Positions 63,236 to 63,718 of a stretch of 64,000 nt of DNA are shown piece after piece. The notes under the pieces were generated by a model. That model was not told the origin of the DNA. It saw only the letters and a list, made by a program, of their open reading frames with translations, and ran no database searches. The DNA lies in the IMG/VR virus record IMGVR_UViG_3300025575_000276. One strand, written 5' to 3'. The stretch comes from a virus (lineage: Duplodnaviria; Heunggongvirae; Uroviricota; Caudoviricetes). The position numbers and the translations under genes are program-made. Positions within the stretch are counted from its first letter, which is position 1. Every line of letters begins with the position of its first letter.

Positions 63236-63718
63236 ATGAACTATCAAGAGATAGAAGGGGATCTCATCGAAATGACTAAAACTGGCCATTTTGATGTGAT
63301 TACCCATGGCTGTAATTGCCAATGTAGAATGAGATCCGGAATTGCTGTAGAAATGGCTAAGGAGTTTAATGTTGATCTATTACCGTTGGAGTTACCGGCC
63401 TACCGAGGTGCGGTGAATAAACTTGGTCAGATAGACTTAACATTTGACCATAGGTACGATATCTACGTGATAAACTCATACACCCAGTATAACTATGGAC
63501 GTGAGGTGATACAATTGGACTATGAGGCTCTTACACTCTGTTTGAGGAAGATAAACTTTACACTTCCCGGCAGAAGAGTTGGACTTCCACAAATCGGTTG
63601 TGGTCTGGCCGGTGGTGATTGGAATATCGTAAAAGGTATTATCCAAAGAGAATTAAAAGACTGTAAAGTAACAGTAGTAATCTACAAAAAACCAAAATAT
63701 GAGCACGAACCCTTATAA
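63236..63718 (+). CDS. macro domain protein (TARG1/OARD1/DarG-like ADP-ribose-processing fold)
   Basis: 'GDLIEMTKTGHFDVITHGCNCQCRMRSGIA' matches the OARD1-type 'GDLF...HCIS.D..MGAGIA' pattern. A later Gly-rich 'GCGLAGGDW' follows. Confidence 0.6.
   Translation: MNYQEIEGDLIEMTKTGHFDVITHGCNCQCRMRSGIAVEMAKEFNVDLLPLELPAYRGAVNKLGQIDLTFDHRYDIYVINSYTQYNYGREVIQLDYEALTLCLRKINFTLPGRRVGLPQIGCGLAGGDWNIVKGIIQRELKDCKVTVVIYKKPKYEHEPL

What the first reader, a model, noticed from the sequence alone, without database searches (positions are those of the whole stretch)
63236..63718. TARG1/DarG-like macro domain encoded at the end of the replication module
The N-terminal region 'GDLIEMTKTGHFDVITHGCNCQCRMRSGIA' fits the OARD1/TARG1-type macro domain signature, which is the family of the DarG antitoxin macro domain. 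Macro domains remove ADP-ribose from proteins or from DNA. In a phage this suggests counter-defence against ADP-ribosylating host systems such as DarT-like toxins, or against ADPR-derived signalling. It could also be the eraser counterpart to the PARP-like candidate at 23197..23820.
Basis: partly seen in the sequence, partly recalled or inferred. Interest (0 to 1): 0.55.

Follow-up and report, generated by a model that had tools for sequence, protein, structure and literature searches.

The report
Phage macrodomain ADP-ribose hydrolase, glutamine type
This phage gene encodes a real macrodomain enzyme that most likely strips ADP-ribose off molecules to defeat a bacterial defence, but it belongs to a common, recently characterised phage family, so it is a routine new member and not a discovery.

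Summary
The ORF at 63236..63718 (+, 160 aa) is real and encodes a confident macrodomain (PHROG 335 E=2e-46; AF2 pLDDT 93; Foldseek top hits TARG1, BT1257, Poa1p, DarG). Gln84 sits in the DarG-K80/TARG1-K84 column and Ala125 in the TARG1-D125 column. This is the known glutamine-type subclass (SCO6735/BT1257), whose functional residues (His24, Asn27, Gln84, Gly126/127) are invariant in 121 homologues. The family is in about 5% of sequenced phages. Two members have published roles. T4 Tk.4 ('AdfM') is needed to escape DarTG2. Vibrio phage Gary 'Adpp' is an ADP-ribose-1''-phosphate phosphatase inside the NARP1 NAD+-rebuilding operon. Our protein is about equally distant from both (30% and 34% identity). 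Its closest metagenomic relatives are often NARP1-embedded, but this gene is standalone. It lies between dUTPase and DNA ligase, with no Adps/Namat/NADAR from 64 kb upstream to 10 kb downstream. I favour AdfM-like removal of ADP-ribose from phage DNA (about 0.42) over Adpp-like activity (about 0.3). The proposed 'PARP-like' partner is a CmdT-family ART homologue, but nothing links it to the macro gene. Verdict: new member of a known kind; modest interest.

The parts
63236..63718 (+). Macrodomain CDS, 160 aa (ATG start, TAA stop), of the Gln-type ALC1/TARG1-like class
   Evidence: ORF. PHROG 335 E=2e-46. PDB relatives BT1257 and TARG1. AF2 pLDDT 93. Foldseek top hits TARG1, BT1257, Poa1p and DarG.
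63305..63316 (+). Codons for His24-Gly25-Cys26-Asn27 (HGCN motif). Asn27 aligns with DarG N22 and SCO6735 N27; His24 aligns with SCO6735 H24 and Poa1p H23.
   Evidence: H24 and N27 are invariant in 121 homologues. Alignment. SCO6735 N27S is nearly inactive (PMC9411070).
63485..63487 (+). Codon CAG for Gln84, which occupies the position of the catalytic Lys of DarG (K80) and TARG1 (K84)
   Evidence: MAFFT L-INS-i alignment. HMM alignment to BT1257 and SCO6735 'ANMIGQH', combined with the published structural superposition placing SCO6735 Q85 at K80/K84. hhalign against DarG gives probability 96%. Gln84 is invariant in 121 of 121 homologues.
63596..63622 (+). Codons for G121-C-G-L-A125-G126-G127-D-W129, the phosphate-binding loop. 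Ala125 lies in the column of TARG1 catalytic Asp125.
   Evidence: Alignments. A125, G126, G127 and W129 are invariant or nearly invariant. SCO6735 G128E lowers activity.
62520..62984 (+). Upstream dUTPase gene. The start is TTG at 62520 or the ATG at 62541 used by public gene calls.
   Evidence: Pfam dUTPase E=1e-29. Called as 147 aa in L089 and L090.
62987..63232 (+). 81-aa ORF of unknown function immediately upstream, with a 3-nt gap to the macro gene. The order is conserved in relatives.
   Evidence: Only a weak match to PHROG 14233.
63699..64000 (+). Start of the downstream 165-aa ORF of unknown function. It overlaps the macro stop by 20 nt and runs off the window; an ATP-dependent DNA ligase follows in the source contig.
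   Evidence: Sequence. Gene calls in L004 and L089-L092. No Pfam or PHROG hit.

Best explanation
The gene encodes a small, single-domain macrodomain hydrolase of the glutamine-type ALC1/TARG1-like subclass (the SCO6735 / BT1257 / T4 Tk.4 / Adpp family). Like its characterised relatives, it should bind ADP-ribose and cleave the substituent attached to the 1'' carbon of the distal ribose, releasing free ADP-ribose. It would do this without the Lys nucleophile used by TARG1 and DarG. Gln84, held in place by Asn27, would position the ribose ring oxygen and the transition state, and a backbone-held water near residue 25 would act as proton donor. That mechanism is inferred from SCO6735. In this phage I think its most likely job is AdfM-like. 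It would be expressed together with the replication and nucleotide-metabolism genes and would remove ADP-ribose that a host DarT2-type toxin places on thymine in single-stranded phage DNA, so that replication can go on. What is shown: the fold, the class, the absence of Lys/Asp, the conservation of the SCO6735-type functional residues, the standalone context and the homology to Tk.4. What is inferred: catalytic activity, the DNA substrate, and the existence of a DarT2-type defence in the probable Bacteroidota host.
For: Fold and class. Gln-type active site: Q84 lies in the K80/K84 column by three methods, and H24, N27, Q84, G126 and G127 are invariant in 121 homologues. SCO6735, which carries the same residues, removes DarT-made thymidine-ADPr from ssDNA, rescues E. 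coli from DarT, and loses activity with Q85A or N27S (PMC9411070). T4 tk.4 is the single Tn-seq hit required on a DarTG2 host, and a clean knockout sensitises T4 (preprint 10.1101/2025.11.20.689424). T4 Tk.4 is 30% identical to the query (E=8e-20) and shares the motifs HGCNC, N-x-YTQ and IG-x-G-x-(A/G)-x-G-(D/N)-W. The query matches DarG macro HMMs. Context: the gene is standalone in a co-directional, overlapping array of helicase, RecT-like, primase, exonuclease, dUTPase, macro, DNA ligase, RNase T-like exonuclease and RNR genes. No Adps, Namat, NADAR, SLOG or NDT gene lies from 64 kb upstream to 10 kb downstream, and an ADPR-1''P phosphatase alone cannot rebuild NAD+ (logic). Standalone relatives also sit among DNA-metabolism genes. 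Most family members in isolated phages are standalone: about 2,559 of 50,697 records carry the family, whereas about 15% of 859 NARP1 operons in 20,185 genomes carry a macro.
Against: The T4 evidence is genetic only. I found no in-vitro test of any Tk.4-type phage macro on ADP-ribosylated DNA. The query is just as close to Gary Adpp (34%), whose measured activity is ADPR-1''P to ADPR. Of the 25 viral relatives with at least 50% identity, 15 lie within 6 kb of Adps-like and/or Namat-like genes, and the query nests among them in an NJ tree while Tk.4 branches deep. No residue or charge feature separates the two functional groups. The loop after Gln84 is shorter than the Lys-bearing 'mobile loop' that aids DNA binding in SCO6735. 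The presence of DarT2 in the host lineage was not tested. About 96 kb of the 170-kb genome was not seen.
Confidence: 0.42

Rival explanations
1. Adpp-like role. The enzyme dephosphorylates ADP-ribose-1''-phosphate, the product of RES-domain (aRES) NAD+ phosphorolysis, to ADP-ribose. This would feed a NARP1 pathway (Adps + Namat) encoded elsewhere in the genome, or detoxify ADPR-1''P.
For: Vibrio phage Gary Adpp (KNV71_gp137) belongs to the same Gln-type family (34% identity, E=1e-20; motifs HQCNC, NVYGQY, IGCGLAGGDW). Purified Adpp converts ADPR-1''P to ADPR and is required for NARP1-AP to beat aRES. Among 80 viral loci with homologues, 26 have a Prs-like neighbour and 23 a Nampt-like neighbour, often in the exact order Adps-macro-Namat. 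The Nampt-like neighbour is a true Namat: E=1e-168 to SPbetaL1 Namat 9W5X against about 1e-71 to Nampt. The closest relatives of the query (53-60% identity) are mostly of this kind. Public annotation calls the family 'phosphatase'.
Against: No Adps, Namat or other NAD-network gene lies in the 64-kb window or 10 kb beyond it, whereas in every linked relative they lie within 6 kb. Without NARP1 the reaction does not restore NAD+. Standalone members such as T4 Tk.4 have a different demonstrated phenotype.
Confidence: 0.3
2. Dual-specificity enzyme. One active site cleaves any good leaving group at C1'' of ADP-ribose (phosphate, thymine N3, uracil N3, acidic side chains). The same protein would then serve as both AdfM and Adpp, and gene context decides which role matters.
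For: Active-site motifs are indistinguishable between NARP1-embedded and standalone members. Adpp and AdfM are 35% identical to each other. SCO6735 already acts on thymidine-ADPr DNA, uracil-ADPr RNA and ADP-ribosylated protein. Many viral macrodomains dephosphorylate ADPR-1''P in vitro (stated).
Against: No member has been tested on both substrates. SCO6735 is selective: it is inactive on 2'-OH RNA ADPr and, according to the results text, on phosphate-end ADPr.
Confidence: 0.15
3. Eraser or antidote for an ADP-ribosyltransferase that acts on protein or RNA. The writer could be the phage's own CmdT-like ART at 23200..23820, or a host ART toxin.
For: The window does encode a CmdT-family ART homologue (PADLOC PD-T4-9_A E=3.9e-8; PD-T4-9 = CmdTAC) with invariant H12, Y44 and E170. 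Its best fold hits are all PARP or Tpt1 ART domains, though weak. SCO6735 also de-MARylates protein.
Against: The two genes are 40 kb apart, on opposite strands and in different modules. The bacterial homologue of the ART is not next to a macro gene. CmdT modifies adenine N6 in mRNA, a linkage not known to be cleaved by this macro subclass. The fold match is not significant (E about 0.1).
Confidence: 0.07
4. Degrades or sequesters ADP-ribose-derived immune signals (for example Thoeris cADPR isomers or His-ADPR), or is a catalytically silent ADP-ribose binder.
For: Macro domains bind such signals in Thoeris effectors. A survey of viral NAD/ADPr systems argues that phage macros mainly target soluble ADPr derivatives, and macros co-occur with NADAR and SLOG genes.
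Against: All residues needed for hydrolysis in SCO6735 are invariant, which argues against a silent binder. No member of this subclass has been shown to act on cyclic ADPR signals. No SLOG or NADAR gene is nearby here.
Confidence: 0.06

Closest known systems
T4 Tk.4 = AdfM (anti-DarT factor Macrodomain; HIDEN-SEQ preprint 10.1101/2025.11.20.689424)
   Same: Same PHROG (335). It is a single-domain phage protein of about 155-160 aa with the same HGCNC, N-x-YTQ and Gly-rich loop motifs, including Gln at the Lys position. It is standalone, not next to NAD-salvage genes. Identity is 30% (E=8e-20) to T4 Tk.4 and 34-35% to the allele in phage JY01.
   Different: It is a deep branch relative to the query. 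It comes from a different host phylum and sits in a different neighbourhood (between vs and tk). Its activity on DNA is assumed, not measured.
Adpp of Vibrio phage Gary (KNV71_gp137), the ADPR-1''-phosphate phosphatase of NARP1-AP (preprint 10.64898/2026.01.28.702374)
   Same: Same Gln-type family, 34% identity (E=1e-20), same motifs. Many of the query's closest metagenomic relatives sit in the same Adps-macro-Namat arrangement.
   Different: Adpp is defined by its place inside a NARP1 operon. The query has no Adps or Namat from 64 kb upstream to 10 kb downstream.
SCO6735 (PDB 5E3B) and BT1257 (PDB 2AFC/2FG1), bacterial Gln-type ALC1-like macrodomains
   Same: They are the best sequence matches in the PDB (family profile: BT1257 E=1e-16, SCO6735 E=1e-9). 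His24, Asn27, Gln84/85 and the Gly-rich loop are shared. Both lack the TARG1/DarG Lys and Asp.
   Different: Identity is only 27-30%. These are cellular, not phage, proteins. SCO6735 has a longer Lys-rich mobile loop after the Gln and Val at position 25, where the query has Gly.
DarG antitoxin macrodomain (T. aquaticus, M. tuberculosis) and the Lys-type phage AdfM of PhiKZ (gp104)
   Same: Same macrodomain class. Asn22 is equivalent to Asn27. hhalign probability is 96%. PhiKZ AdfM shows that an orphan phage macrodomain can remove DarT2 ADP-ribose from DNA.
   Different: DarG and PhiKZ AdfM keep the catalytic Lys (K80, K78), where the query has Gln. DarG also has a C-terminal DarT-binding domain and a neighbouring DarT gene. 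Lys-type phage macros form a separate, smaller set of 291 records.
Human TARG1/OARD1
   Different: The catalytic dyad Lys84/Asp125 is replaced by Gln84/Ala125. Identity is 22-32%.
Yeast Poa1p (PDB 6LFQ), an ADP-ribose-1''-phosphate phosphatase
   Same: Same class and the same 'H-x-C-N-C' motif (Poa1p H23 corresponds to H24). It is the source of the 'phosphatase' and 'Poa1p-like' annotations.
   Different: It is distant (21% identity, 24 bits). It has Ser, not Gln, in the Lys column, and Poa1p S30 is not conserved (Arg31 in the query).

Membership tests
Macrodomain superfamily | Three-layer alpha/beta/alpha macro fold with a central mixed beta-sheet | tested here: met
   AF2 model with pLDDT 93. 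212 Foldseek PDB hits at E<=1e-3, and the top 50 are all macrodomains or designed proteins built on a macro scaffold.
Macrodomain superfamily | Pfam PF01661 match above the gathering score | tested here: not met
   15.8 bits against 22 (E=0.014). This reflects the known poor coverage of this subclass by PF01661. PHROG, PDB, PADLOC and NCBIfam models all match.
ALC1/TARG1-like macrodomain class | Closest structural and sequence neighbours are TARG1, DarG, Poa1p, SCO6735 and BT1257, not MacroD, PARG or viral Mac1 | tested here: met
   Foldseek ranks 1-15. Profile search of the PDB.
TARG1 (OARD1) family | Catalytic dyad Lys84 / Asp125 | tested here: not met
   Gln84 (or Ser81 in the pairwise phmmer alignment) and Ala125 occupy these columns. 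There is no Lys in either alignment.
DarG antitoxin | Catalytic Lys80 in the macrodomain | tested here: not met
   Gln84 aligns with K80.
DarG antitoxin | Conserved Asn22 in the ADP-ribose pocket | tested here: met
   Asn27 aligns with it and is invariant.
DarG antitoxin | C-terminal DarT-binding domain (full length about 330-340 aa) and the NCBIfam equivalog score | tested here: not met
   The protein is 160 aa. Matches cover only HMM positions 14-144 of 329 (PADLOC) and 13-148 of 338 (NCBIfam, 28.8 bits against a cut-off of 250).
DarG antitoxin | Adjacent DarT toxin gene | tested here: not met
   The neighbours are a dUTPase, an 81-aa ORF, a 165-aa ORF and a DNA ligase. No ART-like gene is adjacent.
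Gln-type ALC1-like subclass (SCO6735 / BT1257) | Gln at the position of the TARG1/DarG catalytic Lys, positioned by a conserved Asn (SCO6735 Q85, N27) | tested here: met
   Q84 and N27 are both invariant in 121 sequences. Their functional importance was shown in SCO6735.
Gln-type ALC1-like subclass (SCO6735 / BT1257) | His24 and the Gly-rich phosphate-binding loop (SCO6735 G128) | tested here: met
   H24, G126 and G127 are invariant.
Gln-type ALC1-like subclass (SCO6735 / BT1257) | Extended, Lys-bearing mobile loop after the Gln (SCO6735 K89, K94) that aids DNA binding | tested here: inconclusive
   The query loop 'QYNYGREVIQLDY' is 3-4 residues shorter than in BT1257 and SCO6735 and carries one Arg (R89). 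Loop length varies widely in the family.
AdfM (T4 Tk.4 type) | Homology to T4 Tk.4 as a standalone single-domain phage macro | tested here: met
   30% identity, E=8e-20. Same PHROG. No NARP1 genes nearby.
AdfM (T4 Tk.4 type) | Protects the phage from DarTG2 and removes thymine-linked ADP-ribose from DNA | not testable with these tools
   This needs plaque assays on a DarTG2 host and a gel-shift assay on DarT2-modified ssDNA.
Adpp (NARP1-AP) | Homology to Vibrio phage Gary Adpp | tested here: met
   34% identity, E=1e-20, with shared motifs.
Adpp (NARP1-AP) | Encoded within two genes of adjacent Adps and Namat genes (operon definition of Osterman et al.) | tested here: not met
   HMMs built from 26 Adps-like and 26 Namat-like neighbours find nothing in the window or in the 10 kb downstream. 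About 96 kb of the genome was not examined.
Adpp (NARP1-AP) | ADPR-1''-phosphate phosphatase activity | not testable with these tools
   This needs an LC-MS assay with purified ADPR-1''P.

The most novel reading that the evidence does not exclude
The glutamine-type phage macrodomains may be general 'C1''-ADP-ribose glycohydrolases'. A single active site would handle both thymine-linked ADP-ribose on DNA (the AdfM role) and ADP-ribose-1''-phosphate (the Adpp role, by C-O rather than P-O cleavage). That would make one small protein a two-system counter-defence against DarTG2 and aRES. In this Bacteroidota phage it might in addition serve as the antidote for the phage's own CmdT-like ADP-ribosyltransferase, giving a phage-borne writer/eraser pair.
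Probability: 0.12. Interest if true: 0.6.

Novelty: new member of a known kind. Interest (0 to 1): 0.3.

Why it matters
If the favoured reading is right, DarT2-type DNA ADP-ribosylation and its reversal by orphan macrodomains extend to large freshwater phages of Bacteroidota. The gene would also be a convenient divergent test case (30-34% from both characterised members) for a question the literature has left open. That question is whether the Tk.4/AdfM and Adpp proteins, which share an identical glutamine-type active site, really differ in substrate or are one promiscuous enzyme used in two arms races. For annotation, the analysis shows that 'phosphatase', 'DarG-like' and 'TARG1-like' labels on PHROG 335 proteins should not be read as substrate assignments. 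It also shows that the TARG1/DarG catalytic-residue test gives a false negative for this subclass.

Tried and rejected
(1) Near-identical DNA in sequenced phages: none found. The closest isolate protein is from Cellulophaga phage phi17:2, at 46% identity.

(2) The pairwise phmmer alignment put Ser81 opposite TARG1 K84. I rejected it in favour of Gln84, because S81 varies (S/A/C) while Q84 is invariant, and because MAFFT, the HMM alignment to BT1257/SCO6735 and hhalign agree on Gln84. The family-profile alignment to TARG1 itself was unreliable in the central strand.

(3) I searched the window and the 10 kb downstream for NADAR, a second macro, YAcAr/SLOG, Nuc_deoxyri_tr2, Adps and Namat. There were no hits.

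(4) I looked for a discriminator between Adpp-type and standalone members in active-site motifs, loop lengths and isoelectric point. I found none.

(5) I extended the genome view upstream. Two look-ups failed because of my own minus-strand coordinate slip. The corrected one showed only tail and structural genes.

(6) The 'PARP-like' ORF has no hit in Pfam, NCBIfam or PDB by sequence. Its Foldseek hits are weak. Only PADLOC PD-T4-9_A gave a significant match.

(7) A promoter/terminator scan of 60-64 kb found nothing above shuffled expectation.

(8) I searched the held library for in-vitro tests of a Tk.4-type phage macro on ADP-ribosylated DNA and found none.

(9) I considered a housekeeping role in tRNA-splicing by-product removal, as for Poa1p. 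No Tpt1/KptA or RNA-repair genes are nearby, and the family is accessory and patchy across phages.

(10) Not used: the search of protein representatives, the third homologue search and the third fold search. They were not needed for the verdict.
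Full report
**Observation.** The window carries an ATG-to-TAA ORF at exactly 63236..63718 on the + strand, encoding 160 aa.

The macrodomain call is solid:
- PHROG 335 ('phosphatase') matches at E=2e-46.
- phmmer against PDB sequences finds Bacteroides thetaiotaomicron BT1257 (2AFC/2FG1, E~2e-10) and human TARG1/OARD1 (E~5e-6).
- An AlphaFold2 model built on 51 homologues has pLDDT 93 and pTM 0.88.
- The best Foldseek matches in the PDB are TARG1 (E=1e-10), BT1257, Poa1p and the DarG macrodomains, ahead of MacroD-type and viral macrodomains.
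- Only Pfam PF01661 falls short (15.8 bits against 22).

**Context.** The gene lies in a tightly packed, co-directional array. The order is DNA polymerase (50564..52672), helicase, RecT-like protein, primase, a PD-(D/E)XK-like exonuclease, a 204-aa ORF, dUTPase (62520..62984), an 81-aa ORF and then the macro gene.

The window's tail is identical to ENA contig k141_289202 (169,860 bp), so the window spans roughly 85-149 kb of a ~170-kb genome. Downstream, a 165-aa ORF starts at 63699 and overlaps the macro stop by 20 nt. It is followed by an ATP-dependent DNA ligase, small ORFs, an RNase T-like exonuclease and the ribonucleotide reductase large subunit. A 92%-identical homologue has the same gene order. 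The gene is therefore inside the replication and nucleotide-metabolism module, not at its end.

No sigma-70-like promoter or intrinsic terminator exceeds the shuffled expectation. The exact protein occurs on at least 10 metagenomic contigs. Several features point to a Bacteroidota host, though this is inference. The best isolate match is a Cellulophaga phage (46%). The best PDB match is from Bacteroides. Another window gene has 85%-identical homologues in a Paludibacter MAG and other Bacteroidota.

**Catalytic residues.** They are absent.
- I verified reference sequences against the PDB. My recalled M. tuberculosis DarG sequence matched 5M3I at 100%, and the T. aquaticus and Thermosipho DarG sequences were read from the alignments.
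- A MAFFT L-INS-i alignment places query 'VINSYTQ84YNY' against DarG 'IINFPTK80KHW' and TARG1 'YYLITK84KRA'. It places 'GCGLA125GGDW' against TARG1 'GCGLD125RLQW'.
- The family profile aligns 'vvNaYTQy' to BT1257 and SCO6735 'vANMIGQH'.
- A published structure-based superposition puts SCO6735 Gln85 at the position of TARG1 Lys84 and DarG Lys80 (PMC9411070).
- An independent hhalign of the family against a DarG alignment (probability 96%, E=3.6e-9) again pairs Gln84 with Lys80.
- The alternative residue from the pairwise phmmer alignment, Ser81, varies (S/A/C). His24, Asn27, Gln84, Gly126 and Gly127 are invariant in all 121 sequences examined.

**What the glutamine type means.** The missing Lys/Asp does not mean an inactive domain. 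SCO6735, with BT1257 as its structural twin, is a characterised Gln-type ALC1-like macrodomain.
- It removes DarT-made ADP-ribose from thymidine in ssDNA, rescues E. coli from DarT, and also inhibits DarT by binding.
- Q85A/E and N27S abolish or nearly abolish activity, and G128E lowers it.
- The proposed mechanism is a backbone-held water at residue 25 protonating the thymine leaving group, while Gln85 holds the ribose ring oxygen.
- SCO6735 also removes uracil-linked ADP-ribose from RNA and de-MARylates protein. It does not act on 2'-OH RNA ADP-ribose.

Our protein has every residue shown to matter in SCO6735. Its loop after the Gln is shorter than the Lys-rich 'mobile loop' of SCO6735.

**How common, and what is known in phages.** tblastn finds the family in 2,559 of 50,697 phage records (about 5%). 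These include T4-like, rV5-like, Felix-like, PAK_P1-like and many Vibrio phages. A published survey reports macro domains in about 40% of medium-sized phages and 41% of myoviruses.

Two members have published functions:
- **T4 Tk.4.** The T4-like homologue lies between vs and tk, which is T4 Tk.4, annotated 'phosphatase; contains A1pp phosphatase motif'. A 2025 preprint found tk.4 to be the only Tn-seq hit needed on a DarTG2 host, confirmed it with a clean knockout, and named it adfM. Removal of ADP-ribose from DNA was assumed, not measured. T4 Tk.4 is 30% identical to our protein (E=8e-20) and shares the Gln-type motifs.
- **Adpp.** A 2026 preprint showed that a Poa1p-like macro protein, Adpp, encoded between Adps and Namat in some NARP1 operons, converts ADP-ribose-1''-phosphate to ADP-ribose. 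This lets NARP1 rebuild NAD+ after cleavage by the RES-domain defence aRES. I located the characterised protein (Vibrio phage Gary KNV71_gp137) in its Prs-macro-Nampt operon. It is 34% identical to our protein (E=1e-20), 35% identical to T4 Tk.4, and has the same Gln-type motifs.

A third protein, PhiKZ gp104, is also called AdfM. It is a Lys-type, DarG2-like macrodomain that removes DarT2 ADP-ribose from DNA in vitro. Lys-type macros form a separate set of 291 phage records.

**Which role fits this gene?** I ran an unbiased neighbourhood analysis of 80 IMG/VR loci carrying homologues, using all-against-all clustering of ORFs within 6 kb.
- The commonest neighbours are a Prs-like protein (26 loci), a Nampt-like protein (23), NADAR (15), Nuc_deoxyri_tr2 (12), a YAcAr SLOG protein (11) and metallophosphoesterases.
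- The Nampt-like neighbour is a true Namat: E=1e-168 to SPbetaL1 Namat 9W5X/9W5W, against about 1e-71 to genuine Nampt.
- Of the 25 loci with at least 50% identity to the query, 11 have both Adps-like and Namat-like genes and 4 more have the Adps-like gene.
- In a neighbour-joining tree the query nests among these, while Tk.4 branches deep. This tree has no bootstrap support, so I treat it as indicative only.

Against the Adpp reading:
- HMMs built from those neighbours find no Adps, Namat, NADAR, SLOG or NDT gene anywhere in the 64-kb window or the next 10 kb. In linked relatives these genes always lie within 6 kb.
- An ADPR-1''P phosphatase alone cannot restore NAD+.
- Standalone members are the majority state among isolated phages: about 5% of records carry the family, whereas about 15% of 859 NARP1 operons in 20,185 genomes carry a macro.
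- Standalone relatives sit among DNA-metabolism genes such as dCMP deaminase, FEN-like exonuclease, UDG-like protein, helicases and RNR activase. Our gene does the same.

Active-site motifs, loop lengths and isoelectric points do not separate the two groups.

I therefore commit to AdfM-like reversal of thymine ADP-ribosylation on phage ssDNA as the most likely role (about 0.42). Adpp-like activity comes second (about 0.30), and a dual-specificity enzyme third (about 0.15). That the protein is an active Gln-type macrodomain hydrolase releasing free ADP-ribose I hold at about 0.9.

**Membership.** It is a macrodomain of the ALC1/TARG1-like class and of the Gln-type subclass.
- It is not a TARG1-family enzyme, because the catalytic dyad is absent.
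- It is not a DarG orthologue. It has no catalytic Lys, no C-terminal DarT-binding domain and no DarT neighbour. PADLOC DarG matches at E=8e-9 over HMM positions 14-144 of 329 only, and NCBIfam antitoxin_DarG scores 28.8 bits against a cut-off of 250.
- It fails the operon definition of Adpp.
- It meets the sequence and context criteria for a Tk.4-type AdfM, but the defining phenotype cannot be tested here.

**The proposed 'writer'.**
- It has no Pfam, NCBIfam or PDB sequence match and belongs to an uncharacterised PHROG.
- It matches PADLOC PD-T4-9_A at E=3.9e-8. PD-T4-9 was renamed CmdTAC, and its first gene is CmdT, an ADP-ribosyltransferase toxin that modifies mRNA.
- Its family (5,792 homologues, mostly in Bacteroidota chromosomes; one is labelled DUF3990) has invariant His12-Gly13, Tyr44 and Glu170.
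- An AF2 model (pLDDT 78.6) finds only PARP1/2 and Tpt1 ART domains as top Foldseek hits, but weakly (E~0.1, TM 0.33-0.40).

So an ART fold is plausible. Nothing links it to the macro gene, however. The two are 40 kb apart, on opposite strands and in different modules. In a Paludibacter MAG the homologue is paired with a 58-aa ORF, not with a macro gene.

**Verdict.** The finding is real and the class assignment is right. The gene is a new, divergent member of a widespread phage family whose two published roles, anti-DarTG2 and ADPR-1''P phosphatase, cannot be told apart by sequence. Novelty: new member of a known kind. Interest: about 0.3.

Noticed in passing
window 23197..23820 (-), plus the upstream small ORF 23827..24006 (-): A lone minus-strand gene among plus-strand genes encodes a CmdT-family (PADLOC PD-T4-9_A, E=3.9e-8) ADP-ribosyltransferase-like protein with invariant H12, Y44 and E170. 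It is preceded by a 60-codon ORF. The same pairing of a 58-aa and a 207-aa gene occurs in a Paludibacter MAG (L007 7821-7997 and 8001-8624), and homologues are abundant in Bacteroidota chromosomes. It looks like a toxin-antitoxin or defence-type cassette carried by the phage, with no SecB-like chaperone.
   Followed up: partly
L008-L087 (IMG/VR loci), e.g. L009 5207-8183, L016, L017; L094 (Vibrio phage Gary) 2126-5156: In 23-26 of 80 related phage loci the macro gene sits between or beside Adps-like and Namat-like genes (NARP1-AP). These loci often also carry NADAR, Nuc_deoxyri_tr2 and YAcAr/SLOG genes, forming dense NAD+/ADP-ribose counter-defence islands.
   Followed up: yes
L005 6001-8030 and L006 825-2854 (homologue P0103): A 57%-identical homologue on a 102-kb phage scaffold lies about 1 kb upstream of a NADAR gene (the fold of the anti-DarTG1 factor AdfN). 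A macro plus NADAR pair would cover both DarT types. Our window has no NADAR.
   Followed up: partly
literature: The name 'AdfM' has been given independently to two non-orthologous phage macrodomains. PhiKZ gp104 is Lys-type, DarG2-like and biochemically shown to de-ADP-ribosylate DNA. T4 Tk.4 is Gln-type and has genetic evidence only. Annotation transfer between them would be misleading.
   Followed up: partly
literature (PMC11833690): The results text says SCO6735 is inactive on 5'-phosphate-linked ADP-ribose on RNA and DNA, but the discussion says it is active on RNA phosphate ends. This inconsistency bears on the substrate range of the Gln-type subclass.
   Followed up: no
window 62520..62984: The dUTPase start is ambiguous. 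The longest ORF starts at TTG 62520 and overlaps the preceding 204-aa gene by 41 nt. Public gene calls mostly use an ATG giving 147 aa (window 62541).
   Followed up: no
window 55219..56436 and 56306..57706: The longest-ORF coordinates of the DnaB-like and RecT-like genes overlap by about 130 nt. Public gene calls start the RecT-like gene later (426-438 aa instead of 466 aa), so the upstream start is probably wrong.
   Followed up: no
whole window; L089-L092: The exact 160-aa protein and its gene order recur on at least 10 contigs from different metagenomes, including lake-type samples and an NCBI MAG assembly (GCA_003191745.1). This ~170-kb phage lineage is therefore widespread and has probably been binned into a bacterial MAG.
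   Followed up: partly
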